Positions 17,441 to 58,607 of a stretch of 64,000 nt of DNA are shown one piece after another. A program made the translations under genes and the position numbers. Every line of letters starts with the position of its first letter. The first letter of the stretch is position 1. Source of the stretch: Ciconia boyciana (taxonomy: Eukaryota); contig NC_132969.1 in NCBI RefSeq assembly GCF_034638445.1, positions 319,423 through 383,422 on the forward strand, given 5' to 3'. The notes beneath the pieces are model-generated. The model made no database searches. It was not told where the DNA came from and worked only from the letters and a program-made list of their open reading frames with translations.

Positions 17441-17546
17441 ACCGCAGGGACGACCCCCTGCGGGTCCCCTCCGCGGGGCGGGGCGGGGCGGTGGGAAGAC
17501 TCCCTCCCCGTTGCTCCACCCCCCTCCCCTTCCCCATCTCCCGCAG

Positions 17547-39813: not shown

Positions 39814-40195
39814 AAGATTGGGGGGGGGGGGGTCTTGAAACCGACATTTGGGGTTTTTCGGGGGGGCCTGAAACCGCCGCTTGGGGAGGGGAGGGGGCCC
39901 CGAAACTGCCCCTCGGATGGGGGGTGGGGGACCCCGAAACCGCCATTTGGGGTCATTTTGGGGGAGGGGGCTTGAAACCGACGCTGGGGGTGGGGTGGGG
40001 GTGGGGGGGGCTTGAAACCGCCCCTTGGGCTCATCATGGGGGGCCCCCAACCCGCCGCAGCGCCAAGCCCCGCCCCCCCGGCGCCAAGCCCCGCCCTCCG
40101 TGCCAAGCCCCGCCCCCCAGTGCCAAGCCCCGCCTCCCCAGCCCGTTTTTTTAACGGGGGGGGGGAGGGGATAATTAACGAGATGTAACGAGAAT

Positions 40196-40201
40196 AATAA
40201 A
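40196..40201 (+). other. TAOK2: AATAAA polyadenylation signal, probable TAOK2 3-prime end
   Basis: aataAATAAAtgagg lies about 380 nt downstream of the TAOK2 stop. It is the only canonical hexamer between the TAOK2 stop and the CDIPT promoter. Confidence 0.55.
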
Positions 40202-40204
40202 TGA

Positions 40205-40647
40205 GGATGGTGATGACGTCACTGGCTCCGCCCACTTTGCGACGCGCCGAGGGGAGGGGAGGGGCCAGGAGGCCGAGGGGCGGGGCAGGAGGGCGTTAAT
40301 GAGGGGGGCTCATTAAGGGGTCGGGGAGGCCTGGGGGTGGGCGGGGTTAAATTACCTGCGTCATTAATTATTCATGCGGTTAATTATTAATTAACCGCCC
40401 CGTTGTCACGGCAACCGCGGGTGGGGGGGGGTGAGGCCTACTCGGGGTGGCCGCGGGGGATGCCGGGAAGCGCCGCCATGTTTGGAGTGGGCGGGTCCGC
40501 GCGTCGCTGATTGGTAGCGGCGGGGAGAGGAGGGGGCGGGCGCGGGGTCGTGCGCCTGCGCGGGGAGGTGCCGCTTCCTGTATCCCGTGGCCCCGGCCGG
40601 TCTTAAAGGAGCCGCGGCGGCTTTTGGGGGCCCGGGGGTGCGGGGCG
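40205..40647 (+). promoter_or_regulatory. CDIPT: CDIPT promoter / 5-prime UTR CpG island
   Basis: A perfect CRE TGACGTCA sits at 40214-40221 and GC boxes at ggctccgccc (40224-40233) and gaggggcggggc (about 40275). An inverted repeat TTAATGAG(gggggg)CTCATTAA lies at 40296-40316 and a TAATTA/TTAATTAA cluster at 40360-40396. The sequence is GC-rich up to the CDIPT ATG at 40648. Confidence 0.55.
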
Positions 40648-40693
40648 ATGGCGGGCGGCGAGAACGTCTTCCTCTTCGTGCCCAACCTCATCG
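40648..40693 (+). CDS. CDIPT: CDIPT coding exon 1
   Basis: Context ggcgATGg. Translation MAGGENVFLFVPNLI(G); compare human MPDENIFLFVPNLIG. Donor GTGAGG. Confidence 0.9.
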
Positions 40694-40694
40694 G

Positions 40695-41290
40695 TGAGGG
40701 ACTGGGAGGGACTGGGGGATACTGGGAGGGACTGGGAGGGGACTGGGGGATACTGGGAGGGACTGGGGGGACTGGGAGGGGACTGGGGGTCACTGGGAAG
40801 GGCAGGGGGGCGGTTTTGGGGGCTCTGGGGGGTTTGGGGTGGTGGGGGGGACTGGGAGGGGACTGGGGGACTGGGGGATACTGGGAGGGATTGGGGGATA
40901 CTGGGAGGGACTGGGAGGGACTGGGGGTCACTGGGAAGGGCGGGGGGCGGTTTTGGGGGCTCTGGGGGGTTTGGGGTGGTGGGGGGACTGGGAGGGGACT
41001 GGGAGGGACTGGGGGATACTGGGAGGGACTGGGAGGGATTGGGGGATACTGGGAGGGACTGGGAGGGGACTGGGGGTCACTGGGAGGGACTGGGGGACTG
41101 GGAAGGGCAGGGGGCGTTTTGGGGGGGGATTTGGGGGGTTGGGGTGATGGGGGGACTGGGGGATACTGGGAGGGACTGGGAGGGGACTGGGGTTACTGGG
41201 AGGGGACTGGGGGTCACTGGGAGGCACTGGGGGATACTGGGAGGCACTGGGGAGGACTGGGAGGGACTGGGGGGCGATGGTGGACAGGGG
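40695..41290. repeat. About 21-bp repeat (gggactgggaggggactgggggatactgggag), CDIPT intron 1 part 1
   Basis: Direct repetition. Related to the arrays at 44420-45170 and 59800-61780 (the actggga family). Confidence 0.8.
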
Positions 41291-42060
41291 TGCGGCGGGG
41301 GTAATGGGGCTATACTGGGCCGTACTGGGCCATACTGGGAATGGCACCGGGGGCGTGTATTGGGGTCTCTAGGGGTTCGGGGGTGCTGGGCCATACTGGG
41401 CCTTACTGGGCCATACTGGGCCATACTGGGAATGGCACCGGGGCGTGTATTGGGGTCTCTAGGAGTTCGGGGGGTGCTGGGCCATACTGGGCCATACTGG
41501 GAATGGCACCGGGGGCATGTATTGGGGTCTTTGGGGGGTCAGGGGGCGCTGGGCCTTACTGGGCCTTACTGGGCCATACTGGGCATGGCAGTGAGGGCGT
41601 GTGTTGGGGTCTCTGGGGGGTCAGGGGCGCTGAGCCATACTGGGCCTTACTGGGCCATACTGGGCCATACTGGGAATGGCACCGGGGGTGTGTATTGGGG
41701 TCTCTGGGGGTTCAGGGGGGCGCTGGGCCATACTGGGCCTTACTGGGCCATACTGGGCATGGCAGTGAGGGCGTGTGTTGGGGTCTCTGGGGGTCAGGGG
41801 CGCTGAGCCATACTGGGCCTTACTGGGCCATACTGGGCCATACTGGGAATGGCACCGGGGGCGTGTGTTGGGGTCTCTGGGGGTTCGGGGGGGTGCTGGG
41901 CCTTACTGGGCCTTACTGGGCCATACTGGACATGGCACCGAGGGCATCTGTTGGGGTCTCTGGGGGGTCGGGGGGCGCTGGGCCTTACTGGGCCATACTG
42001 GGCCATACTGGGCATGGCAGCGAGGGCGTGTGTTGGGGTCTGCGGGGGGGGCGGGGGTGC
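41290..42060. repeat. Higher-order repeat of about 175 bp built from ccatactgggccttactggg / aatggcaccgggggcgtgtattggggtctctgggggttcgggg
   Basis: The recurring aatggcaccggggg motif and identical ORF translations. Confidence 0.8.
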
Positions 42061-42084
42061 CCCGGGGCTTTGGGTGACCCCCAG

Positions 42085-42219
42085 GCTACGCCCGCCTGGC
42101 GCTGGCCGCTGTCTCCTTCTACCTGATGCCGCGGCAGCCGGGGCCGGCGGCCGCCTGCTACGCCCTGAGCGGGCTGATGGACGCCGTCGACGGGCACGTG
42201 GCCCGGCTGCTGGGCCAGG
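42085..42219 (+). CDS. CDIPT: CDIPT coding exon 2
   Basis: Acceptor gacccccAG, donor GTGGGC. Translation (G)YARLALAAVSFYLMPRQPGPAAACYALSGLMDAVDGHVARLLGQ(G); compare human YARIVFAIISFYFMP...LSGLLDAFDGHAARALNQG. Confidence 0.9.
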
Positions 42220-42224
42220 GTGGG

Positions 42225-43050
42225 CGGGGCCGGGGGCGGGGCCTCGGCAGGGCGGGGCTTGGCAGGGTGGGGCCCCGGGGAGGGGGGTGGGGGTATAGGG
42301 GTGGGGAAGGGGAGCAGGGGCTTGGAGAGGGGTGGGGCTTGGGGAGGGGTGGGGCTTAGGAAGGAGGCGGGGCCCAGGTGCATATGGGGGTGGGGTTAGG
42401 GGAGGGCGTTGCAGCTCTGGGGGCGGGGCTTGGCAGGGTGGGGCCCGGGGGAGGGGGGTGGGGGTATAGGGGTGGGGAAGGGGAGGGGTGGGGCTTGGGA
42501 GGGGTGGGGCTTAGGAAGGAGGCGGGGCCCAGGTGCATATGGGGGTGGGGATAGGGGAGGTGTGGTGTGAGTCTGGGGGCAGGGCTTGGGGAGGGGCGGA
42601 GCTGAAGGGCGGAGCTTGGGGAGGGGCAGGGCCCGGGGCATGTGGGGACGGGGGGTGTGGTGGTGCAGCTTGAAGGGCGGGGCTTGTGAGGGTGGGGCTT
42701 GGCAGGGGCGGGGCTTGGGGAGGGGTGGGGCTTGGGGAGGGGCGGGGTCCGGGGCGATGATGTATGGGGGAGGGAAGGGGATAGGCGATGTCTGGGGGCG
42801 GGGCTTGGGGCGTGGTCACAGAGAGGGGGCGGAGCTCCAACTTCCTCCCCATGGAAGAGGCGGGGCCCACCCCCAAGTCCCCACCCGCAGTGGGCGTGGC
42901 TGACCCTTAGCCCCGCCCCTCGGCCGGGCGCCGCGCTGGACATTGCCCCATGGCGGGAGCGGGGGGGGGGGGTGTCCTGCCCCATAGCGGCTCCCTGCCC
43001 CGCCCCCGGTGGTCCCGCCCCCCCGTGGGCGTGGCTGAGCCTTGTCCCCG
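42225..43050. repeat. G-rich repeat (ggggcttggggaggggtgggg; about 155-bp higher-order unit), CDIPT intron 2
   Basis: aggaggcggggcccaggtgcatatgggggtgggg recurs at about 42361 and 42519. Confidence 0.75.
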
Positions 43051-43057
43051 CCCCCAG

Positions 43058-43211
43058 GCTCGCGGCTGGGCGCCATGCTGGACATGCTGACGGACCGGCT
43101 CTCCACCATGTGCCTCCTGCTCAACCTGGCCCTGCTCTACCCCGCCGCCGCCCCCCTCTTCCAGCTCAGCATGGCCCTCGACGTGGCCAGCCATTGGCTG
43201 CACATGCACTG
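43058..43211 (+). CDS. CDIPT: CDIPT coding exon 3 (CDP-alcohol phosphatidyltransferase motif region)
   Basis: Acceptor cgcccccAG, donor GTGGGC. Translation (G)SRLGAMLDMLTDRLSTMCLLLNLALLYPAAAPLFQLSMALDVASHWLHMH; compare human TRFGAMLDMLTDRCSTMCLLVNLALLYPGATLFFQISMSLDVASHWLHLH. Confidence 0.9.
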
Positions 43212-43214
43212 GTG

Positions 43215-44170
43215 GGCGGGGCTTGCGGGGGCGGGGCGTGCTGGGGGGCGGGGCCTCGGCGGGGTAAGGGGGGGCTGGGATCAGGGGCTGCCCTGGGGGG
43301 GGTGTGTGTGTCTGGGCGAGGGGCGGGGCTTGATGGGGAGGGGCGGGGCTTGGGGAGGGGGCGGGGCTTGGGGACCCTGGGATATGGGGGGCTGCACTGG
43401 AAGGAAAGGGAGGGGGCGTGGTCTGGGGAGGGGGCGGGGTTTGGGAGGGGCGGGGCTTGGGGACCCTGGGATATGGGGGGCTGCACTGAAAGGAAAGGGG
43501 GGCGTGGTCTGGGGAGGGGCGGGGTTTGGGGAGGGGGCGGGGCTTGGGGACCCTGGGATATGGGGGGCTGCACTGAAAGGAAAGGGTGGGGGCGTGGTCT
43601 GGGTGAGGGGGCGGGGCTTGATGGGGAGGGGCGGGGCTTGGGGACCCTGGGATATGGGGGGCTGCACTGAAAGGAAGGGGGCGTGGTCTGGGCGAGGGGG
43701 CGGGGCTTGTAGAGGGGGCGGGGCTTGGGGACCCTGGGATATGGAGTGGTCTGGGCGAGGGGCGTGGTCTGGTCTCAGGGTGTGGTCTGGGCGAGGGGCG
43801 GGGCCTGGGGTAAAGGCGGGGCTTGGGGATGGGGTGGGGCTTGGGAAGGGGAGGAGCCTGGGGTAGGGTGTGCAGTGGGGGTGGAGCTTATCCTCGGAGG
43901 CGTGGCCTTATCCTCGGGGTGGGGCCTTATCCTGGGGGCGGAGTGTTATACTTGGGGCGGGGTCTTATCCTGGGGGCGGGACCTTACCCTTGGAGGTGTG
44001 GCCTTATCCTCGGGGGCAGGGCCTTATCCTCGGGGGCGGGGCCAGCTGTCTATACCTTGGGGGGGGTGATGTGTGTTTCTCCCCTCCTCCCCCGGGTGGG
44101 GCGTGGCCGTGGGTGGGGCCGGTGGCGGGGGTGTGGCCGCGTGGGCGTGTCCTCGCCTGACCCCGCCCCC
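43215..44170. repeat. About 105-bp repeat x5 (ggggaccctgggatatggggggctgcactgaaaggaaaggg) followed by a 16-bp repeat x8 (gccttatcctcggggg), CDIPT intron 3
   Basis: Direct repetition. Confidence 0.8.
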
Positions 44171-44178
44171 TCCGGCAG

Positions 44179-44260
44179 CACCACCCTGCAGGGAGGGGAG
44201 AGCCACAAGGCGGTGGGGGGGGAGGTGCACCCCCTCCTGCGGCTGTACTACGGCTCCAGG
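44179..44260 (+). CDS. CDIPT: CDIPT coding exon 4
   Basis: Acceptor ctccggcAG, donor GTGAGT. Translation (C)TTLQGGESHKAVGGEVHPLLRLYYGSR; compare human SSVVRGSESHKMIDLSGNPVLRIYYTSR. Confidence 0.85.
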
Positions 44261-44337
44261 GTGAGTGGGGAGGGGAGGGGGTGGGGGTGGGGGAGGGGGT
44301 GACCTCCCGCCCCCCCTTGACCCGCCCTCCCCCCCAG

Positions 44338-44419
44338 CCCCTCCTGTTCCTGCTCTGCGCCGGCAACGAGGGGTTTTACTGCTGCCTCTACCTGCTGCAC
44401 TTCGGGGAGGGGCCGCCCG
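44338..44419 (+). CDS. CDIPT: CDIPT coding exon 5
   Basis: Acceptor ctcccccccAG, donor GTGAGG. Translation PLLFLLCAGNEGFYCCLYLLHFGEGPP; compare human PALFTLCAGNELFYCLLYLFHFSEGPL. Confidence 0.9.
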
Positions 44420-45170
44420 GTGAGGGACTGGGGGGACTGGGACGGACTGGGAGGGGACTGGAGGGACTGGGAGGGGACTGAGGGGACTGGGGGGACTGGG
44501 GGGACTGGGAGGGAACTGGGGGTACTGGGGGGCTGGGAGGGAACTGGGGGGCTGGGAGGGGAACTGGGGGGACTGGGAGGGGACTGGGAGGGGAACTGGG
44601 GGGACTGGGAGGGGAACTGGGGGGACTGGGAGGGGCTGGGAGGGGCGGGGAGGGGAACTGGGGGACTGGGAGGGAACTGGGGAGGACTAGGGAGGGACTG
44701 GAGGGGAACTGGGGGGGACTGGGAGGGACTGGGAGGGACTGGGGGGACTGGGAGGGACTGGGGAGGGACTAGGGGTCACTGGGAGGGGACTGGGAGGGAG
44801 TGGGAGGAACTGGGAGGGATTTGGGGGGAACTGGGGGGCACCGGGTGGATCCGGGGTTGATTGCGATGGGGTGGGGGGGAACTGGGAGGGGACTGGGGGT
44901 CACTGGGGGGAAACTGGGAGGGACTGGGGGAACTGGGAGGGGAACTGGGGGGACTGGGAGGGGAACTGGGGGGGACTGGGAGGGGCTGGGAGGGGACTAG
45001 GGGTCACTGGGAGGGGACTGGGAGGGACTGGCGGGAACTGGGAGGGATTTGGGGGGAACTGGGGGCACCGGGTGGATCCGGGGTCGATTGCGACGGGCGG
45101 GGGGGAACTGGGGGCACTGGGGGGCACCGGTTGGAACTGGGAGAGACTGGGAGATAGCGGGGCGGGGGAG
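44420..45170. repeat. About 21-bp repeat (gggactgggaggggaactgggg), CDIPT intron 5
   Basis: Direct repetition filling the whole intron. Confidence 0.85.
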
Positions 45171-45200
45171 GGAGGTGCTGAGCCCTCCCTCCCCCCCCAG

Positions 45201-45352
45201 TGCTGCCGGGGGGGCCGGGGCTGTTCCGGGCCGGGCTCTGGCTGGGGACCCCCCTGGCCGCGCTCAAGGGGGGGCTGAACCTGCTGCAGCTGGGGGGGGC
45301 CGCCCGCCGCCTGGCCGCCATCGACGCCGCCCAGCGCCCCAAAAGCAGCTGA
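45201..45352 (+). CDS. CDIPT: CDIPT coding exon 6 (terminal, with stop)
   Basis: Acceptor cccccccAG. Translation (V)LPGGPGLFRAGLWLGTPLAALKGGLNLLQLGGAARRLAAIDAAQRPKSS followed by TGA at 45350-45352. The six exons sum to 651 nt, giving 216 aa (human CDIPT is 213 aa). Confidence 0.9.
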
Positions 45353-50300: not shown

Positions 50301-52800
50301 CACGGCCACCCCATGGCCAACCCACGGCTGACCCACAGCCACAGCGTGCCCCACACTGCACCCCATTGCGGCATGCGCTGTGCCCCATTTTACCCCCCGC
50401 TGTGCCCCATTGCACCCCACACCCTACCCATTATCCCACCCTCTGCCCCATAGCCTGCCCCACAGCCCACCCCATAGCCCCATAGCACCCCACGCCACAC
50501 CCCATTGCACCCCAGCACCCGCCCCATTGCACCCCGCACCTTGCCCCACAGCCCCCCACCCTCTGCCCCATTGTGTCATGCACTGCGCCCCATTGCACCC
50601 CCATTACCCCCACACTCTGCCCCACAGCCCGCCCCACAGCCTGCCCCAGAGCCCCATAGCACCACACCCCATTGCAGCCCAGCGCCCGCCCACAGCCCCC
50701 CACCCTCTGCCTGATAGCATCCCCTGCCCCATAGCTCCGCCCCATAGCCTGCCCCATAGCACCACACGCCATTGCTCCCCACCCTCTACCCCATAGCCCC
50801 CCCATTACCCCCCTTCTGCCCCACAGCCTGCTGCACATCCCGCCCCACATCCTGCCCCATGGCAACCCTCTCCCTGACCCATTACACCCCCACCCTGTGC
50901 TCCACTTCCCCATTCCCCCCACCCTCTGCCCCATAGCCCGCCGCCCCATTCCCCCTTCCGCCCCACATCCCACCCCACACCCTGCCCCACATCCCGCCCC
51001 ATAGCACCCCTCTCCCTACCCCATTCCCCCACCCTGCACCCCATTCCCCCATTCCCCTCATATCCCCCCCATTCGCCCCCTTCCGCCCACATCCCCCACG
51101 TCCCACCCCACACCCCGTCCCACGCCCACCCCACATCCCACCCCACATCCCGCCCCATAGCACCCCCTCCCTACCCCATTCCCCGCCCACCCTGCACCCC
51201 ATTCCTCCCCATATCCCCCCCATTCCCCCCTTCCACCCCACATCCCCCCCACGTCCCACCCCACACCCTGCCCCACAGCACCCCCTCCCTACCCCATTCC
51301 CCCCCACCCTGCACCCCATTCCCCCCCATATCCCCCCATTCCCCTCTTCCGCCCCACATCCCCCCCACATCCCACCCCACACCCCCCATGCCCCACCCCA
51401 CATCCCACCCCACATCCCGCCCCATAGCACCCTCCCTACCCCATTCCCCCCCCACCCTGCACCCCTTTCCCCCCATATCCCCCCCCATTCCCCCCTTCCA
51501 CCCCACATCCCCCCACGTCCCACCCCACACCCTGCCCCACACCCCACCCCACATCCCACCCCACATCCCGCCCCATAGCACCTCCCTCCCTACCCCATTC
51601 CCCACCCACCCTGCACCCCATTCCCCCCTTCCCCCCATATCCCCCCATTCCCCCTTCCGCCCCACATCCCCCCACATCCCGCCCCACACCCTGCCCCACA
51701 TCCCGCCCCATAGCACCCCCTCCCTACCCCATTCTCTGCCCACCCTGCACCCCATTCCCCCTTCCCCCCCATATCCCCCCCATTCCCCCCCACATCCCCC
51801 CCCACGTCCCGCCCCACACCCTGCCCCACACCCTGCCCCACATCCCGCCCCATAGCACCCCCTCCCTACCCCATTCCCCGCCCACCCTGCACCCCATTCC
51901 CCCCTTCCCCCCATATCCCCCCCATTCCCCCCACATCCCCCCCCCACGTCCCGCCCCACACCCTGCCCCACACCCTGCCCCACATCCCGCCCCATAGCAC
52001 CCCCCTCCCTACCCCATTCCCCGCCCACCCTGCACCCCATTCCCCCCTTCCCCCCATATCCCCCCCATTCCCCCCCACATCCCCCCCACGTCCTGCCCCA
52101 CACCCTGCCCCACACCCTGCCCCACATCCCGCCCCATAGCACCCCCTCCCTACCCCATTCCCCGCCCACCCTGCACCCCATTCCCCCTTCCCCCCATATC
52201 CCCCCCATCTCCCCTCACATCCCCCCCACGTCCCGCCCCACACCCTGCCCCACATCCCGCCCCATAGCACCCCCTCTCCCTACCCCATTCCCCCCACCCT
52301 GCACCCCATTCCCTTCCTCCCCCCATATCCCCTCCTTCCGCCCCACATCCCTCCCCACGTCCCGCCCCACACCCTGCCCCACACCCTGCCCCACATCCCG
52401 CCCCATAGCACCCCTCCCTACCCCATTCCCGCCCACCCTGCACCCCATTCCCCCTTCCCCCATATCCCCCATTCCCCTCACATCCCCCCCCACGTCCCGC
52501 CCCACACCCTGCCCCACATCCCGCCCCATAGCACCCCTCCCTACCCCATTCCCCCCACCCTGCACCCCATTCCCCCCTTCCCCTCATATCCCCTTCCGCC
52601 CCCACATCCCTCCCCACGTCCCGCCCCACACCCTGCCCCACACCCTGCCCCACATCCCGCCCCATAGCACCCCCCCCTCCCTACCCCATTCCCCGCCCAC
52701 CCTGCACCTCATTCCCCTTCCCCTCATATCCCCCATTCCCCTCACATCCCCCCTCACGTCCCGCCCCACACCCTGCTCCCACACCCTGCCCCACATCCTC
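50300..52800. repeat. C-rich higher-order repeat of about 140 bp (ccccacatcccgccccatagcaccccctccctaccccattccccgcccaccctgcaccccattcccc...), PRRT2 intron
   Basis: catagcaccc recurs at about 140-bp intervals from 51400 to 52700. The array ends at the PRRT2 GTGAGG donor (52802). Confidence 0.85.
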
Positions 52801-52802
52801 AC

Positions 52803-53566
52803 CATCAGGGCGTAGACGAAGGCCACGATGTTGATGGGCCAGACGGGGCAGAAGCAGGCCAGCGCCGCCAGCAGGACGTAGCTCGGTGGCTTCGCCCCCC
52901 CTGGGGACCCCCCCGGGGGTGACCCCTCCCCTCAGTGCCCCCCCCGCCCCCCCATTTTCTTGGGGACCCCCCTCCACTGGCACCGTCACCGGGGGGGGCT
53001 GGGGGGCGGTTGGGGGCTGGGGGGGTGGGGTGGGGGCTGGGGGTCCTGGGGGCTGCTGGGGGCTGGGGGGGGCTTGGGGGCACTTGGGGGCTGGGGGGCT
53101 TGGGGGGCTGGGGGTCCTGGGGAGGTTGGGGGCTGGGGGGTGGGGTGGGGGGGGGGGTCCTGGGGGCGGGTGGGGCTGGGGGGGTTGGGGGGTCTTGGGG
53201 GCAGAGGGGGGTCTTTAGGGTCGGGGAGGGGCTGGGGCTTCCTGGGGCAGTTGGGGGCTGGGGGGTTGGGGTCCTGGGGGTGGTTGGGGGCTGGGGGGCG
53301 GTGGGGGATCTCTGGGGCCCTGGGGTCCTGGGGGCTGCTGGGGGCTGGGGGGCTGGGGGTCTTGGGGGGCAGAGGGGGTCCCCAAGATTCTGGGGCTCCT
53401 GGGGGGCTGGGGGCTGGGGGGCTGGGGGAGGGTCCTCGGGGTGGCGGGGGTGGGGGTGGGGCTGGGGGCTCGGGGGGTTGGGGGTGGGGAGGGGCTTTTG
53501 GGGTGCCGGGGGTCCCGGGGGAGTCGCCGGGGGTTCGGTCTCGGCCGTCCTGGGGGTCTCCGCCAT
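52803..53566 (-). CDS. PRRT2: PRRT2 large 5-prime coding exon (Pro-rich N-terminus and first transmembrane helix), with frame disruptions
   Basis: Minus-strand Kozak ccaccATGg with ATG at 53566-53564. It is preceded by acceptor cccctcccccAG (exon starts at about 53593). The exon ends with ...[32 protein letters not shown] followed by a GTGAGG donor (plus-strand cctcac at 52797-52802). Compare human ...[30 protein letters not shown]. The ATG frame reads [36 protein letters not shown].... The transmembrane helix is in a different frame. The exon is 764 nt, not a multiple of 3, so at least two frame changes occur in G/C homopolymer tracts around 52880-52990. Confidence 0.6.
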
Positions 53567-53727
53567 GGTGGGGAGGGGAGAGGGGGTTCAGGGCTGGGGG
53601 AGGGGCGTGGGGTGAGGGGGGGGGGGAAGCCAGGGGTCTGGCCCCCCCCTCCCCCAAGAGAGGTTCCCATCCCCCACCTGCAGCCCCCGGGGGAGGGGCG
53701 GGGGAGGTGGGGAGGGGGGGTCTTTAC

Positions 53728-54000
53728 CTGAAGCGGCGTCGTGGGCGGTTCCCGCGTGGGGCCGTGACGGGTGGGGGAGGGCGGCGTGGGGGAGGGGGAG
53801 GGTCGGGGGTGGGGGTGGGGGAGGGTCGGGATGGAGGGGCTGGAGAGAGGGGCCGGAGGGCCGGAGGGCGGCTGGGGGAGGGGCGAGGGGGGAGGAGGGC
53901 TGCGGCGGGGAGGGGCGGGGGAGGGGGAGGGGCGAGGGGGTGGGCGGGGAGGGGGAGCCCCTCCCCCTCCCCCCATTCTGGGAAGCGGTTGAGCAGAGCC
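53728..54000 (-). promoter_or_regulatory. PRRT2: PRRT2 5-prime non-coding exon end and CpG-rich promoter
   Basis: A minus-strand donor ...cgccgcttcAG/GTAAAG (plus-strand ctttac at 53722-53727) lies about 135 nt upstream of the coding-exon acceptor. This is the same layout as human PRRT2 (non-coding exon 1, ATG in exon 2). The GC-rich, G-run-dense sequence continues upstream. The TSS was not determined. Confidence 0.45.
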
Positions 54001-56340
54001 GGGAGGTGGGGGAGGGGTTAATGGGGGAGGGGAAGGGGGAGGGGAGGACTTGTCCACAGCCCCTCCCCACCCCCGTGCAGGGCCCCTCGCCCGCCCGGAT
54101 CGGGCCCGGCTCCAACCCTGACCTCATCCCCGGGCAAGTGGCCAGGGCCAATGGTTGCCCGGAGCTCTGGGTGGCCCCCCCCGGGGTTTGGGTGCCCCCC
54201 CCCCCAAAAGGGGCAGGGTGGGGGAGGGGCCCCCCAACCCCCAACCGTCTGGACCCCGTGACCCCAACCCCCCGGGGATGCGGCTTCACCGTCGACTCGT
54301 GGAGACGTCGGCCAATCGGGGGTGGGGGAGGGGTTAATGGGGTGGGGAGGGGCAGGGCGGGGAGGGGCAGGGTGGGGAGGGGCCACCCAACCACCTGGAC
54401 CCCACGACCCCCAGCCCCACGGAGACGTGGTGACCCCCAACCCCCGGGAGATGTGGCTTCACCCTTGGTTCATGGAGACGTCGGCCAATCGGGGCGGGGG
54501 GAGGGGTTAATGGGGCTGGGGGAGGGGTTAATGGGGTGGGGAGGGGCAGGGTGGGGAGGGGCCTCCCAACCCCCCTTCAGATGGACCCTGTGACCCCAAA
54601 CCCCTGGAGATGTGGTGACCCCCAACCCCCCGGAGATGCGGCTTCACCCTTGGTTCATGGAGACGTCGGCCAATCAGGAGGTGGGGGGAGGGGTTAATGG
54701 GGGCTGGGGGAGGGGTTAATGGGGGAGGGGCCCCCAACCCCCATTCAGATGGACCCCGTGACCCCCAGCCCCACGGAGATGTGGTGACCCCCAACCCCAT
54801 GGAGACGTGGTGACCCCCAACCCCCGGAGATGTGGCTTCACCCTTGGTTCATGGAGACGTCGGCCAATTGGGGGTTGGGGAGGGGTTAATTGGGGCTGGG
54901 GAGGAGTTAATGGGGGTGGGGGAGGGGTTAATGGGGGTGGGGAGGGGCCCCCAACCCCCATTCAGATGGACCCTGTGACCCCCAACCCCCCGGAGATGCG
55001 GCTTCACCCTTGGTTCATGGAGACGTCGGCCAATTGGGGGGCTGGGGGAGGGGTTAATTGGGGCTGGGGAGGGGTTAATGGGGGGTGGGGAGGGGCAGGG
55101 TGGGGAGGGGCTCCCAACCCCCATTCAGATGGACCCCGTGACCCCCAGCCCCATGGAGACGTGGTGACCCCCAACCCCCCGGAGATGCGGCTTCACCCTT
55201 GGTTCATGGAGACGTTGGCCAATCAGGAGGTGGGAGGAGCTGTTAATGGGGGCTGCGGGAGGGGTTAATGGGGGAGGGGCCTCCCAACCACCTGGACCCC
55301 ACAACCCCCAGCCCCATGGAGACGTGACAACCCCGACCCCTGGAGACGTGGTGACCCCCAACCCCCCGGAGATGTGGCTTCACCCTTGGTTCATGGAGAC
55401 GTCGGCCAATCAGGGGGCTGGGGGAGGGGTTAATTTGGGCTGGGGAGGGGTTAATGGGGGTGGGGGAGGGGCAGGGTGGGGAGGGGCTCCACAACCCCCA
55501 TTCAGATGGACCCTGTGACCCCAAACCCTCTGGAGATGCGGCTTCACCCTTGGTTCATGGAGATGTTGGCCAATCAGGGGGCTGGGGGAGGGGTTAAGGG
55601 GGTGGGGAGGGGCAGGGTGGGGGAGGGGCCTCCCAACCCCCATTCAGATGGACCCCGTGACCCCCAGCCCCACGGAGACGTGGTGACCCCCAGCCCCACG
55701 GAGACGTGGTGACCCCCAACCCCCCGGAGATGCGTCTTCACCCTTGGTTCATGCAGACGTCGGCCAATCAGGGGGCTGGGGGAGGGGTTAATTGGGGCTG
55801 GGGGAGGGGTTAATGGGGGAGGGGCCTCCCAACCACCTAGACCCCACAACCCCAGCCCCACGGAGACGTGGTGACCCCCAACCCCATGGAGATGTGGTGA
55901 CCCCCAACCCCCGGAGATGCGTCTTCACCCTTGGTTCATGCAGACGTCGGCCAATCAGGGGCTGGGGGAGGGGGTTAATTGGGGCTGGGGAGGGGTTAAT
56001 GGGGGAGGGGCCTCCCAACCACCTAGACCCCACAACCCCCAGCCCCACGGAGACGTGGTGACCCCCAGCCCCATGGAGACGTGGTGACCCCCAACCCCCC
56101 GGAGATGTGGCTTCACCCTTGGTTCATGGAGACGTCGGCCAATCAGGGGCTGGGGAGGGGTTAATTGGGGGTGGGGAGGGGTTAATGGGGGAGGGGCCCC
56201 CCAACCCCCATTCAGATGGACCCCGTGACCCCCAGCCCCACGGAGACGTGGTGACCCCCAACCCCATGGAGATGTGGTGACCCCCAACCCCCCGGAGATG
56301 CGTCTTCACCCTTGGTTCATGCAGACATCGGCCAATCAAA
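54000..56340. repeat. About 185-bp tandem repeat x about 12 carrying GGCCAATCAG (CCAAT box) and GGTTAATGGGG motifs
   Basis: The unit ...ggagatgcggcttcacccttggttcatggagacgtcggccaatcagg...ggggttaatgggg...cccattcagatggaccccgtgacccccagccccacggagacgtggtgacccccaacccc... recurs at about 54270, 54455, 54640, 54830, 55010, 55190, 55375, 55545, 55735, 55915, 56105 and 56295. It lies between the PRRT2 5-prime end and the FReD 3-prime end. Confidence 0.85.
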
Positions 56341-56347
56341 ACGGGGC

Positions 56348-56353
56348 TTTAAT
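56348..56353 (-). other. ATTAAA polyadenylation-signal variant of the FReD gene
   Basis: Plus-strand tttaat equals minus-strand ATTAAA, about 80 nt downstream of the FReD stop. Confidence 0.35.
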
Positions 56354-56429
56354 CACCAGCGGTGGGGGGGAGGGGGATGGGATGGGGTGGGGGGAGGGGA
56401 GGGGGGGGGGAGGGGCCGCAGGGAGCCCC

Positions 56430-56677
56430 TCAGAGCCTCCGGATCTTCATCTCGCTCTTCTTGAGGGAGTAGTAGAAGCCCTTCCACTGGGCCCAGTTGA
56501 TGCCGTTGGCGTAGGAGAGGTGGGCGCCCCCCAGGTAGAAGCCGTTGAGGTTGGAGAAGTGGCAGCTCTTGAACCACCAGGCGCCGGAGGAGAGGGCGGC
56601 GCAGTTCTGGACGTAAAGGTCCTGGTCCCGGTCGAAGGTGGAGAATTTTTGACCGTTGTGGTAGCTGAGGGAATCGC
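56430..56677 (-). CDS. FReD (ficolin/angiopoietin-like fibrinogen C-terminal domain) gene, terminal coding exon
   Basis: Minus-strand acceptor ctccAG. Translation (G)[81 protein letters not shown] followed by TGA (plus-strand tca at 56430-56432). Compare ficolin [20 protein letters not shown]...[26 protein letters not shown]...[26 protein letters not shown]. Confidence 0.8.
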
Positions 56678-56689
56678 CTGGAGGATGGG

Positions 56690-57800
56690 GGAGGAGGAGA
56701 TGGGGGGCACGCGGGGCTTGCGGTGGCCTGGTGGCCCTCCATCGTGGCCTCCGTTGGCCTGGTGGCCCTCCCCATGGTTCACATTGGCTTGGTGGACCCC
56801 CATCGTGGCCTCCGTTGGCCTGGTGGCCCCTCCCCATGGGTGATGTTGGCCTGGTGGCCCCTCCCAATGCCCCACAGTGACCTGGTGGCCCTCCATCATG
56901 GCCTCTGTTGGCCTGGTGGCCCCTCCCCATGGCCCACGTTGGCCTGGTGGCCCCCCATCGTGGCCTCCGTTGGCCTGGTGGCCCCTCCCCATGGGTGATG
57001 TTGGCCTGGTGGCCCTCCATCATGGCCTCTGTTGGCCTGGTGGCCCCTCCCCATGGTTCACAATGGCCTGGTGGCCCCCCATCATGGCTTCCATTGGCCT
57101 GGTGGCCCCTCCCCATGTTTGATGTTGGCCTGGTGGCCCCTCCCCATGGCCCACAGGGACCTGGTGGCCCTCCATCATGGCCTCCGTTGGCTTGGTCTCC
57201 CCTCCCCATGGTTGATGTTGGCCTGGTGGCCCTCCATCATGGCTTCCGTTGGCCTGGTGGCCCTCCCCATGGCTCACATTGGCTTGGTGGCCCCCCATCG
57301 TGGCCTCCGTTGGCTTGGTGTCCCCTCCCCATGGCCCACATTGGCTTGGTGGCCCCCCATCGTGGCCTCCGTTGGCTTGGTGTCCCCTCCCCATGGCCCA
57401 CGTTGGCCTGGTGGCCCTCCATCATGGCTTCCGTTGGCCTGGTGGCCCCTCCCCATGGTTGATGTTGGCCTGGTGGCCCCCCATCGTGGCCTCCGTTGGC
57501 TTGGTGGCCCCTCCCCATGGCCCATGTTGGCCTGGTGGCCCTCCATCATGGCCTCCGTTGGCCTGGTGGCCCTCCCCATGGTTGAGGTTGGCCTGGTGAC
57601 CCTCCATCATGGCCTCCGTTGGCTTGGTGTCCCCTCCCCATGGCCCACGTTGGCCTGGTGGCCCTCCATCATGGCTTCCGTTGGCCTGGTGGCCCCTCCC
57701 CATGGTTGATGTTGGCCTGGTGGCCCTCCATCATGGCTTCCGTTGGCCTGGTGGCCCCTCCCCATGACCCACGGTGACCTCGTGTCCCCTCCCCATGCCC
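56690..57800. repeat. Minisatellite (ggcctccgttggcctggtggcccctccccatggttcacattggcttggtggccccccatcgtgg), first part of the FReD last intron
   Basis: Direct repetition. The minus-strand translation is GPPGQ-containing but is not a Gly-X-Y collagen repeat. Confidence 0.85.
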
Positions 57801-58500
57801 CTCCTTGACCTGCTGCCCCTCCCCATGGTTCACGTTGACCCATCTCCCTCTCCCCATTGGCCACCTTGACCCACAACCCCCTCCCCATTGGCTACCTTGA
57901 CCTGCTGCCCCTCCCCATTGGCCACCTTGACCCACAACCCCCTCCCCATTGGCTACCTTGACCTACAACCCCTCCCCATTGGCCACCTTGACCTGGTGCC
58001 GCTCCCCATGCCCCACCTTGACCCACAACCCCTCCCCATGCCCCACCTTGACCCACAACCCCTCCCCATTGGCTACTTTGACCCTCTCCCCCTCCCCATT
58101 GGCTACCTTGACCTGCTGCCCCTCCCCATTGGCCACCTTGACCCACAACCCCCTCCCCATTGGCTGCCTTGACCCACAACCCCTCCCCATTGGCTACCTT
58201 GACCTGCTGCCCCTCCCCATTGGCCACCTTGACCCACAACCCCCTTCCCATTGGCTACCTTGACCCACAACCCCCTCCCCATTGGCCACCTTGACCGGTG
58301 CCCCTCCCCATGCCCCACCTTGACCCACAACCCCTCCCCATTGGCTACCTTGACCTGCTGCCCCTCCCCATTGGCTGCCTTGACCCACAACCCCTCCCCA
58401 TTGGCCACCTTGACCCAATAACCCTCCCCACCCCCACCTTGCCCCACCTCCCCTTCCCCACCCCCACCTTCCCCTCCCCACCCTCCCCTCAACCTCCCCC
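57800..58500. repeat. About 31-bp minisatellite (cttgacccacaacccctccccattggctac), each unit with an ATTGG/CCAAT core
   Basis: About 20 iterations; the plus strand is C-rich. Confidence 0.85.
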
Positions 58501-58607
58501 CTCCCCTTCCCCTCACCCCGGCCTGCATTCCCCCCTCCCCTCCCCTCGCCCTCCCCGCCGCGGGGCCGCCGTGGGGCGGCCGTGGGGCGCCCCCCAAGCG
58601 TCCTCAC

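What the first reader, a model, noticed from the sequence alone, without database searches (positions are those of the whole stretch)
54000..56340. 185-bp tandem array in which every unit carries an NF-Y-type CCAAT box and GTTAATG motifs, sitting at the PRRT2 promoter side
About 12 head-to-tail units each contain ggcttcacccttggttcatggagacgtcGGCCAATCAGg, a textbook RRCCAATSR core. Each unit also holds two copies of ggGGTTAATGGgg. The array starts only about 250 bp upstream of the inferred PRRT2 5-prime exon and ends about 90 bp downstream of the FReD stop. A promoter-proximal array of a dozen CCAAT boxes could act as a transcription-factor sink or enhancer-like element. It could equally be a species-specific satellite with a fortuitous motif. 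The GTTAATG motif is also present as the inverted repeat TTAATGAG...CTCATTAA in the CDIPT promoter (40296-40316).
Basis: seen in the sequence. Interest (0 to 1): 0.5.

Follow-up and report, generated by a model that had tools for sequence, protein, structure and literature searches.

The report
Amplified MFAP4 3'-flank minisatellite in stork
The 185-bp repeat with a CCAAT box in every unit is real, but it is a lineage-specific tandem amplification of the sequence just after the MFAP4 gene's poly(A) signal, the kind of local repeat expansion that fills bird dot chromosomes, and comparison with other birds gives no sign that it is a dedicated PRRT2 regulatory element.

Summary
The array is real. 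It spans 54258-56345, with 11 full units of 164-194 bp and one 49-bp truncated unit. Every unit carries GGCCAAT, and 10 of 12 fit RRCCAATSR. Most units hold two GGGGTTAAT motifs.

The window is avian, almost certainly Oriental stork, and 81% of it is tandem repeat (31 arrays of 300 bp or more). The neighbouring MFAP4 intron array has 17 consensus CCAAT boxes.

Orthologous loci from nine other bird species show that the unit is the amplified 3' flank of MFAP4. The truncated unit next to MFAP4 holds the gene's ATTAAA poly(A) signal, followed by TTGATTGGCC. The GTTAAT motif is the reverse complement of ATTAAC, a decayed copy of that signal.

The module occurs in six other Neoaves with different amplifications:
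- pigeon: 175 bp, about 25 copies
- cuckoo: about 3 units
- finch: 134 bp, 4.6 copies
- crane: two units plus a 21-bp CCAAT piece, 16 copies
- curlew: a 25-bp CCAAT-less piece, 174 copies
- cormorant: one copy

Parrots, goose and emu lack it. Pigeon and cuckoo keep it although PRRT2 is absent there. PRRT2 has its own conserved promoter block (54097-54133) with a separate CCAAT.

Verdict: an ordinary "sequence stuttering" minisatellite, with NF-Y sites as inherited by-products. Function is not excluded but is unsupported. Low interest.

The parts
54258..56345 (.). Tandem array of 11 full units (164-194 bp: u01 54277-54449, u02 54450-54634, u03 54635-54828, u04 54829-54994, u05 54995-55183, u06 55184-55370, u07 55371-55534, u08 55535-55728, u09 55729-55915, u10 55916-56103, u11 56104-56296) plus the truncated u12 56297-56345. 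A degenerate half-unit lies at about 54205-54276.
   Evidence: TRF; unit alignment A1; core-motif search with shuffles; pairwise unit identity of 87-99% counting substitutions only, with the edge unit u01 the most divergent.
54310..56336 (+). Twelve GGCCAAT boxes, one per unit, starting at 54310, 54483, 54668, 54862, 55028, 55217, 55404, 55568, 55762, 55949, 56137 and 56330. On the gene (minus) strand they read (C/T)TGATTGGCC, a Y-box type sequence.
   Evidence: 10 of 12 fit RRCCAATSR. They are orthologous to the TTGATTGGCC that follows the MFAP4 poly(A) signal in pigeon, cuckoo, curlew, cormorant and crane.
56348..56353 (-). ATTAAA, the inferred MFAP4 poly(A) signal. It lies 76 nt after the stop and 8 nt before the first TTGATTGGCC. 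It is the only ATTAAA or AATAAA in the 3' UTR.
   Evidence: Sequence. A hexamer at the same position (45-76 nt after the stop) occurs in nine other species: ATTAAA in pigeon, cuckoo, curlew, cormorant and crane; AATAAA in finch, goose and emu. No transcript evidence.
56430..56678 (-). MFAP4 (the FReD gene) last coding exon; stop codon at 56430-56432.
   Evidence: tblastn gives 90% identity to human MFAP4. The C-terminal 175 aa are 97% identical to pigeon and cuckoo MFAP4-like proteins.
54097..54133 (-). Conserved non-coding block upstream of PRRT2 (GGATCGGGCCCGGCTCCAACCCTGACCTCATCCCCGG on the plus strand); the likely PRRT2 core promoter or regulatory element.
   Evidence: Alignments A3 and A4 with cormorant, crane and emu.
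54146..54152 (+). Lone GGCCAAT outside the array, 15 nt from the conserved block; a candidate genuine PRRT2 promoter CCAAT box.
   Evidence: CCAAT sits at the same position in crane; cormorant has CCAGG and emu has CCAAA there.
53728..53790 (-). 3' part of the PRRT2 5' non-coding exon, ending in the splice donor CAG|GTAAAG (GT at 53727-53726 on the minus strand).
   Evidence: Conserved in cormorant and crane (A3). TSS not mapped.
53564..53566 (-). PRRT2 start codon ([13 protein letters not shown]...).
   Evidence: Identical to the N-terminus of the annotated Ciconia boyciana PRRT2, P0121.

Best explanation
The array is a locus-specific minisatellite, made by local tandem amplification of the DNA just downstream of the MFAP4 poly(A) signal. 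On avian dot chromosomes this process has been called "sequence stuttering".

In the ancestor of Neoaves this 3' flank was a module of about 140-190 bp. Read on the gene strand it ran: A(A)TTAAA, a C-run, TTGATTGGCC(AAGG), ...GGTGGAG..CATCTCC, GGGGTTGGTGG repeats, GGGTCT.G.AGGTCA..CCCCTCCCC.

In the stork lineage the whole module was copied head to tail, by unequal exchange, replication slippage or gene conversion, to about 12 copies. These now fill the entire spacer between the MFAP4 cleavage site and PRRT2's conserved promoter block.

The MFAP4-proximal truncated copy keeps a working ATTAAA signal. The CCAAT box in each unit is the inherited reverse complement of TTGATTGGCC.

The dozen NF-Y-type sites are therefore a by-product of amplification, not something assembled for PRRT2. 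They may well bind NF-Y if the chromatin is open.

Shown: the array, its orthology, its anchoring at the MFAP4 3' end, and lineage-specific amplification of different sub-segments. Inferred: the poly(A) signal assignment, the amplification mechanism, and the absence of a selected function for the multiplicity.
For: 1. Repeat background. TRF covers 81% of the window in 31 blocks of 300 bp or more, and the adjacent MFAP4 intron array (56724-58514) carries 17 RRCCAATSR matches, so CCAAT arrays are not special to the promoter side.

2. Orthologous array in pigeon. Directly after the MFAP4 stop, pigeon has a 175-bp unit in about 23-25 copies with the same block order, about 65% identical to the window array by blastn.

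3. Other Neoaves.
- Cuckoo has about 3 units.
- Darwin's finch has a 134-bp unit in 4.6 copies, with CCAAT decayed to GGTTGG in several units.
- Crane has 2 units plus a 21-bp CCAAT-bearing piece in 16 copies, of which only 6-8 keep CCAAT.
- Curlew has one head, then a CCAAT-less 25/51-bp piece in 174 copies.
- Cormorant has one copy plus a C-rich microsatellite.

4. Alignment A2 of the poly(A) signal and its downstream sequence lines up the signal, the C-run, TTGATTGGCC, CATCTCC and GGGGTTGGTGG in five species.

5. Proximal AATTAAA against internal AATTAAC is seen in pigeon, cuckoo and the window.

6. PRRT2 is absent between MFAP4 and CDIPT in pigeon, cuckoo and parrots, yet pigeon and cuckoo have the units. 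Goose and emu have PRRT2 sequence but no unit.

7. PRRT2 has its own conserved upstream block and its own CCAAT.

8. There is no copy of the unit elsewhere in the window.

9. Units are 87-99% identical to each other, with the edge unit most divergent and keeping ancestral bases shared with cuckoo, as expected for concerted evolution.

10. Literature. PMC12954441 describes imperfect local tandem expansions of tens to hundreds of bases in dot-chromosome genes. It reports that they expanded independently in different species and that intergenic DNA is also affected.
Against: - The proximal TTGATTGGCC is intact in five species besides the window and differs by one base in cuckoo, including the two species with a single copy. 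That is more conservation than about 65% background identity predicts, so the ancestral single element probably has a function (a downstream polyadenylation element or an NF-Y site). Its copies could share that function.
- CCAAT-bearing segments were amplified in most lineages, and selection for multiplicity cannot be excluded.
- CpG is not depleted relative to GpC in the array (71 against 77), so a hypomethylated, open state is possible.
- I had no transcript, chromatin or binding data.
- I could not make a genome-wide copy count.
Confidence: 0.7

Rival explanations
1. The array is a copy-number-dependent NF-Y enhancer or upstream promoter element, of the ABO-minisatellite type. Each Y-box binds NF-Y, and the cluster opens chromatin and boosts or buffers transcription of PRRT2 (immediately downstream on the same strand) or of MFAP4.
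For: - 10 of 12 boxes fit RRCCAATSR, and on the gene strand they read CTGATTGGCC, matching the published Y-box motif CTGATTGG(T/C)(T/C).
- The proximal box is conserved in Neoaves, including single-copy species.
- Stork, pigeon and crane all carry multiplied CCAAT segments.
- The array abuts PRRT2's conserved promoter block.
- A precedent exists: the ABO upstream minisatellite with CBF/NF-Y motifs, where four repeats drive more transcription than one (PMC2988417, citing Kominato 1997 and Yu 2000).
Against: - The copy number next to PRRT2 is 1 in cormorant, 12 in the window, and 0 in goose and emu.
- The largest array (pigeon, about 25 copies) sits between two convergent 3' ends with no PRRT2.
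- In crane and finch many copies have lost the CCAAT pentamer, which NF-Y strictly needs.
- Curlew amplified a piece without CCAAT.
- CCAAT is no better conserved than the other blocks of the internal units.
Confidence: 0.13
2. The array is a termination and insulation spacer. Repeated poly(A)-site-like modules (a hexamer followed by GU/G-rich sequence) downstream of MFAP4 pause RNA polymerase II and prevent read-through into the closely spaced PRRT2 promoter, or into convergent CDIPT in pigeon and cuckoo.
For: - The array starts 8 nt after the inferred poly(A) signal, and each unit is a copy of that region.
- The gene-strand sequence after the signal is G/U-rich (TTGATTGG, GGGGGGTTGGGGG).
- The ancestral MFAP4-PRRT2 spacer is very short, about 200 bp in emu, a situation where termination elements matter.
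- G-rich elements downstream of poly(A) sites, and in short tandem intergenic regions, are linked to pausing and termination (PMC8972054, PMC3145960).
Against: - Internal hexamers read ATTAAC, which to my knowledge is not a functional poly(A) signal variant.
- The GGGGAGGGG (MAZ-type) motifs and all 24 G4 motifs lie on the plus strand, which is antisense to both genes. The cited work stresses Gs on the transcribed-sense strand.
- GGGGAGGGG occurs 142 times across the window, so it is not specific to this spacer.
- Copy number ranges from 1 to 25 between species.
Confidence: 0.1
3. The unit is a genome-wide dispersed or centromeric satellite, or a fragment of a transposable element, that happens to lie here.
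For: None found. I could not run a genome-wide copy count.
Against: - No copy occurs elsewhere in the 64-kb window beyond G-run matches.
- In the other bird loci examined, the unit lies only directly after the MFAP4 stop, at the syntenic position.
- An exact-match scan of metagenome contigs for the core found 0.
- No Rfam family comes near its gathering score.
Confidence: 0.03

Closest known systems
"Sequence stuttering" on avian dot chromosomes (PMC12954441, Genome Biol Evol 2026)
   Same: - A GC-rich, gene-dense, tandem-repeat-saturated setting (81% of the window).
- Imperfect tandem blocks of tens to hundreds of bases.
- Local origin from formerly unique sequence.
- A different structure in each species' orthologous region.
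- That paper notes that intergenic DNA is also affected.
   Different: - That paper focuses on introns and exons; this case is an intergenic 3' flank.
- Here the seed sequence can be traced across Neoaves, and it contains the upstream gene's poly(A) signal and a Y-box.
- The window's chromosome class is not known directly. The pigeon orthologue lies on a 490-kb chromosome, and the annotated Ciconia PRRT2 on a 912-kb record.
ABO gene upstream 43-bp minisatellite enhancer binding CBF/NF-Y (Kominato et al. 1997 J Biol Chem 272:25890; the 43-bp unit length is from my own knowledge, the rest as cited in PMC2988417)
   Same: A tandem array upstream of a gene in which each unit carries a CCAAT-factor motif, with variable copy number.
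   Different: ABO binding and copy-dependent enhancer activity were shown experimentally; nothing is shown here. The ABO units are much shorter. The comparative data here argue against a conserved link to the downstream gene.
G-rich / MAZ pause elements between closely spaced tandem genes (C2-factor B; short tandem intergenic regions, PMC8972054)
   Same: A short spacer between a poly(A) site and the next promoter on the same strand, rich in G4NG4 motifs.
   Different: The GGGGAGGGG motifs are on the antisense strand here and are ubiquitous in the window. The spacer has been inflated to 2 kb by repeats.
Ordinary vertebrate minisatellites (VNTRs)
   Same: Head-to-tail units, internal sub-repeats, higher-order variants, divergent edge units, and copy-number change between lineages.
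   Different: The unit (about 185 bp) is at the long end for a minisatellite. Within-species polymorphism is untested.

Membership tests
Locus-specific minisatellite / tandem array | Head-to-tail copies of a unit, more than chance would give | tested here: met
   TRF period 185-187, about 11-12 copies. The core matches 11 times against 0 in 100 shuffles.
Locus-specific minisatellite / tandem array | Confined to one locus rather than dispersed | tested here: inconclusive
   Absent from the rest of the window, and found only at the syntenic MFAP4 3' end in other birds. A whole-genome count is not possible with these tools.
Locus-specific minisatellite / tandem array | Copy number varies between lineages or individuals | tested here: met
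   Between species: 1 (cormorant, curlew), about 3 (cuckoo), 4.6 (finch), 12 (window), about 25 (pigeon). Within-species variation was not testable.
Avian dot-chromosome sequence stuttering | Region saturated with local imperfect tandem expansions | tested here: met
   81% TRF coverage, 31 blocks of 300 bp or more.
Avian dot-chromosome sequence stuttering | Repeat derives from local, formerly unique sequence, and differs between species' orthologous regions | tested here: met
   The unit is the MFAP4 3' flank (A2). Different segments are amplified in crane, curlew, cormorant, pigeon and stork.
Avian dot-chromosome sequence stuttering | Lies on a dot microchromosome | tested here: inconclusive
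   The pigeon orthologue is on a 490-kb chromosome record, the cormorant orthologue on 1.56 Mb, and the annotated Ciconia PRRT2 on a 912-kb record. The window's own chromosome is not given.
NF-Y-binding minisatellite enhancer (ABO type) | A consensus CCAAT box in each unit | tested here: met
   12 of 12 units have CCAAT; 10 of 12 fit RRCCAATSR.
NF-Y-binding minisatellite enhancer (ABO type) | NF-Y occupancy and copy-number-dependent enhancer activity | not testable with these tools
   No ChIP, ATAC or reporter data are available.
NF-Y-binding minisatellite enhancer (ABO type) | Conserved association with the gene it regulates | tested here: not met
   The array is present where PRRT2 is absent (pigeon, cuckoo). 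It is single-copy or absent where PRRT2 is present (cormorant, goose, emu).
Poly(A) site / 3'-end module of MFAP4 | A canonical hexamer at a conserved position after the stop, followed by a U/GU-rich element | tested here: met
   ATTAAA at 56348-56353, the only such hexamer in the 3' UTR. A hexamer sits 45-76 nt after the stop in nine other species, followed in six Neoaves by TT(G/A)ATTGGCC. This holds for the proximal unit only; internal units read ATTAAC.
Poly(A) site / 3'-end module of MFAP4 | A mapped mRNA 3' end | not testable with these tools
   The one transcript-like contig recovered (L008) stops 63 nt after the stop codon, before any hexamer.
CpG-island promoter | CpG observed/expected above 0.6 | tested here: not met
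   The array scores 0.31 against 0.87 for the CDIPT promoter. However, GpC o/e in the array is also only 0.34, so strand-segregated G and C runs distort the measure.
HNF1 / CREB site cluster | A GTTAATNATTAAC palindrome, or TGACGTCA / a TGACG half-site | tested here: not met
   Only GTTAAT half-motifs are present. There are 0 TGACG or CGTCA in any unit; GACGTC is flanked by A and G.
Structured RNA gene | A match to an Rfam family at its gathering score | tested here: not met
   The best hit is 31.5 bits against a gathering score of 84; all hits are GC-hairpin miRNA models.

The most novel reading that the evidence does not exclude
The TTGATTGGCC Y-box a few bases after the MFAP4 poly(A) signal is a functional, NF-Y-bound element conserved across Neoaves. 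Its repeated amplification (stork 12 copies, pigeon about 25, crane about 16) would then create copy-number-variable NF-Y platforms that tune expression of the flanking genes (PRRT2 or MFAP4). That would be an avian counterpart of the ABO minisatellite enhancer, and an example of "sequence stuttering" generating regulatory variation.
Probability: 0.12. Interest if true: 0.5.

Novelty: new member of a known kind. Interest (0 to 1): 0.25.

Why it matters
The main value is as a caution. In avian dot-chromosome sequence, almost every spacer and intron is a tandem array, so any motif present in the seed sequence will appear as a regular "cluster of binding sites". Motif multiplicity there is not evidence of regulatory design.

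The locus is also a clean worked example of how such arrays arise. One traceable 3'-flank module, containing a poly(A) signal and a Y-box, was amplified in a different way in each of seven bird lineages, while the copy next to the gene kept a working signal.

If the minority reading were true, it would show repeat expansion creating copy-number-variable NF-Y platforms next to a neuronal disease-gene orthologue (PRRT2).

Tried and rejected
- Rfam scan of 53500-56700 at a permissive E-value: only sub-threshold GC-hairpin miRNA models.
- Exact-match scan of metagenome contigs for the 30-nt core: 0 hits. This collection is not expected to hold bird DNA, so the result carries little weight.
- CpG observed/expected as a methylation proxy: inconclusive, because G and C are strand-segregated and GpC is equally low.
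- Looking for the same-species locus: the annotated Ciconia boyciana PRRT2 (P0121) is not on record for a contig look-up, and so is Lagopus MFAP4. Copy-number polymorphism could therefore not be checked.
- A Logan transcript-like contig (L008) was fetched to map the MFAP4 3' end, but it stops before the poly(A) signal.
- I first read the lone CCAAT at 54146 as a 13th degenerate unit, because it is 164 bp from the last one. I rejected this after alignment with crane, cormorant and emu showed it belongs to PRRT2's conserved upstream block.
- BLASTN of the PRRT2 5' region against goose gave no alignment.
- The CDIPT-promoter TTAATGAG/CTCATTAA inverted repeat was checked as a possible relative of the unit. 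The unit's only matches outside the array are G-run matches, and none lies at the CDIPT promoter.
- The phage, plasmid and E. coli collections and the protein-structure tools are irrelevant to this question and were not used.
Full report
**1. The observation**

TRF reports a 185-187-bp array at 54258-56338. GGCCAAT occurs at 54310, 54483, 54668, 54862, 55028, 55217, 55404, 55568, 55762, 55949, 56137 and 56330, spaced 164-194 bp apart. A 36-nt core around it matches 11 times with at most 3 mismatches. It matches 0 times in 100 dinucleotide-preserving shuffles, and nowhere else in the window.

Aligning the units (A1) gives 11 full units and a 49-bp truncated twelfth at the right end. The first 40 columns (GATGYGGCTTCACCCTTGGTTCATGGAGACGTCGGCCAAT) are nearly invariant. 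The remainder is built from two variable-copy sub-repeats: GGGGAGGGGTTAATGGGGCT (1-3 copies) and GGAGAYGTGGTGACCCCCARCCCCA (1-3 copies).

Ten of the 12 boxes fit RRCCAATSR. TTAAT occurs 0-3 times per unit, usually twice, and about a third of the copies read GTTAATT rather than GTTAATG. Units are 87-99% identical counting substitutions only. The PRRT2-side edge unit is the most divergent.

The one correction of substance is that the array starts near 54258, not 54000.

**2. Context**

tblastn with human sequences recalled from memory places three genes:
- CDIPT on the plus strand (40660-45343).
- PRRT2 on the minus strand (ATG 53566, transmembrane exons at 52880-52797 and 49238-49110).
- MFAP4, the "FReD" gene, on the minus strand, with its stop at 56430-56432.

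The array therefore lies downstream of MFAP4 and upstream of PRRT2, and all three sit on the same transcriptional strand.

The window is avian. The MFAP4 C-terminus is 97% identical to pigeon and cuckoo proteins. All three coding pieces of the annotated Ciconia boyciana PRRT2 match the window exactly. The source is therefore almost certainly the Oriental stork.

TRF covers 81% of the 64 kb, in 31 blocks of 300 bp or more. The array next door, in the last MFAP4 intron (56724-58514), has 17 RRCCAATSR matches, more than the array in question. A random 185-bp unit of this composition contains RRCCAATSR with probability 0.038 and a bare CCAAT with probability 0.41. With 31 arrays in the window, a CCAAT-bearing array is not remarkable in itself.

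**3. What the unit is**

I fetched the orthologous locus from nine other bird species. Their state, read downstream of the MFAP4 stop, is:

| Species (locus) | What follows the MFAP4 stop |
|---|---|
| Pigeon (L001) | 175-bp unit, about 23-25 copies, same block order, about 65% identical to the window array |
| Cuckoo (L002) | about three units in a 700-bp spacer |
| Darwin's finch (L007) | 134-bp unit, 4.6 copies |
| Crane (L010) | two full units, then a 21-bp CCAAT-bearing piece (GAAGACCTTGGGCCAAYCAAC) in 16 copies; only 6-8 keep CCAAT |
| Curlew (L004) | one head, then a 25/51-bp piece without CCAAT in 174 copies (4.3 kb) |
| Cormorant (L009), the closest relative with this gene order | one copy, then a C-rich microsatellite |
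| Parrots (L005, L006), goose (L003), emu (L011) | no unit |

Alignment A2 lines up five species over the poly(A) hexamer, a C-run, TT(G/A)ATTGGCC(AAGG), GGTGGAG..CATCTCC and GGGGTTGGTGG. The unit is therefore the MFAP4 3' flank.

In every species the hexamer sits 45-76 nt after the stop. It is ATTAAA in six Neoaves and AATAAA in finch, goose and emu. In the window it is at 56348-56353 on the minus strand, it is the only such hexamer in the 3' UTR, and it lies 8 nt before the first TTGATTGGCC.

In pigeon, cuckoo and the window, the proximal copy reads A(A)TTAAA while the internal copies read AATTAAC. The "CCAAT box" is the reverse complement of the TTGATTGGCC that follows it. The published Y-box motif is CTGATTGG(T/C)(T/C) (PMC7226217). 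That NF-Y is the factor binding it is from my own knowledge.

**4. Relation to PRRT2**

PRRT2 is not found between MFAP4 and CDIPT in pigeon, cuckoo or parrots. Yet pigeon has the largest array, and it sits between two convergent 3' ends. Where PRRT2 is present, the copy number is 1 in cormorant, 0 in goose and 0 in emu.

PRRT2 also has conserved upstream sequence of its own. There is a 5' exon ending in CAG|GTAAAG (window 53728 upward). There is also a block, GGATCGGGCCCGGCTCCAACCCTGACCTCATCCCCGG, at 54097-54133 that is conserved as far as emu. Fifteen bases beyond that block lies a lone CCAAT (54148-54152), which crane has at the same position (A3 and A4). This lone box, not the array, is the better candidate for a PRRT2 promoter CCAAT.

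In emu the distance from the MFAP4 signal to that block is only about 200 bp. In the stork the array has inflated this spacer to about 2.2 kb.

**5. Mechanism and function**

The best-supported reading is local tandem amplification, of the kind recently named "sequence stuttering" on avian dot chromosomes. That phenomenon consists of imperfect blocks of tens to hundreds of bases, of local origin, that expand independently in different species and also affect intergenic DNA (PMC12954441).

Three points favour a mutational process over selection for many CCAAT boxes:
- Each lineage amplified a different piece of the same module.
- CCAAT has decayed in many crane and finch copies.
- The edge unit keeps ancestral bases shared with cuckoo.

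Birds evolve slowly, so about 65% identity between orders does not by itself require constraint. That is an inference from general knowledge of avian substitution rates.

One thing does look constrained. The proximal TTGATTGGCC is intact in five species besides the window and differs by one base in cuckoo, including the two single-copy species. The single ancestral element probably has a function, either as a downstream polyadenylation element or as an NF-Y site. I cannot tell which.

**6. Rival readings**

*NF-Y platform or enhancer (ABO type).* The precedent is the ABO upstream minisatellite with CBF/NF-Y motifs and copy-number effects. This reading remains possible, but the comparative pattern above does not support it.

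*Termination spacer.* This is suggested by the very short ancestral spacer and by work on G-rich elements in short tandem intergenic regions (PMC8972054). Against it:
- The internal hexamers read ATTAAC.
- All 24 G4 motifs and the GGGGAGGGG motifs lie on the plus strand, antisense to both genes.
- GGGGAGGGG occurs 142 times in the window.

*Dispersed satellite.* This finds no support. No RNA family matches. HNF1 and CREB sites are not present as such. CpG statistics are uninformative.

**7. Verdict**

This is a real array, correctly described. It is a new member of a known kind: a lineage-specific minisatellite made from the MFAP4 poly(A)-site flank. Its regular NF-Y-type motifs are inherited rather than assembled. 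Interest is low.

The residual novelty is the conserved Y-box just after a poly(A) signal, and the unusually clear trace of how one seed sequence stuttered differently in seven bird lineages.

Noticed in passing
window 52797-53566 (minus strand): PRRT2's large coding exon does not read through in one frame. The ATG frame, a middle stretch ([10 protein letters not shown], similar to human GEKQENG) and the transmembrane-exon frame are three different frames. The annotated Ciconia boyciana PRRT2 is only 101 aa and splices out the whole proline-rich region. This could be homopolymer indels in the assembly, or real decay of the proline-rich part.
   Followed up: partly
L001 24838-29351; L002 13382-14089; L005 14436-15421; L006 4124-5138: No PRRT2 transmembrane exon is found between MFAP4 and CDIPT in pigeon, cuckoo and two parrots. 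It is found there in the stork window, cormorant, crane and goose, and in diverged form in emu. This suggests loss or relocation of PRRT2 in several Neoaves lineages, or assembly gaps.
   Followed up: partly
window 54097-54152: A non-coding block, GGATCGGGCCCGGCTCCAACCCTGACCTCATCCCCGG, is conserved from stork to emu, followed by a lone CCAAT shared with crane. It is the likely PRRT2 core promoter or regulatory element.
   Followed up: yes
window 56724-58514: The last MFAP4 intron is a 30/31/62-bp array whose units carry ATTGGCC on the plus strand, giving 17 RRCCAATSR matches on the minus strand. Pigeon's last intron holds GGGTCAATGG in 50 copies at the corresponding place. The two may be related.
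   Followed up: no
L005 14436-15400 and L006 4124-5100: In two parrots the MFAP4-CDIPT spacer is a 33-bp array, CCGCCAAACAGCGCCCCCTGCTGCTGACA. Its core, AGCGCCCCCTGCTG, resembles the CTCF consensus (resemblance from memory, not scored).
   Followed up: no
window 40140-40520: The CDIPT upstream region contains an AT-rich island inside very GC-rich DNA. It holds a perfect CRE TGACGTCA (40214-40221), the inverted repeat TTAATGAG/CTCATTAA (40296-40316), a near-palindromic GGTTAATTATTAATTAACC (40378-40396) and ATTGG (40510-40514). CpG o/e there is 0.87.
   Followed up: no
window 12082-17443: A 62-bp unit is repeated 86 times at 93% identity (5.4 kb). Its GC content is only 51% and its CpG o/e is 0.08, which differs from the rest of the window.
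   Followed up: no
L004 7062-11371; L010 18707-19034: Curlew expanded a 25/51-bp piece of the MFAP4 3' flank to 174 copies. Crane expanded the 21-bp CCAAT piece to 16 copies, with about half decayed to CCAAC.
   Followed up: yes
window 54258-56338: All 24 canonical G-quadruplex motifs in the array are on the plus strand, antisense to MFAP4 and PRRT2; none are on the minus strand. That is 11.5 per kb, against 6.6 per kb on that strand window-wide.
   Followed up: no
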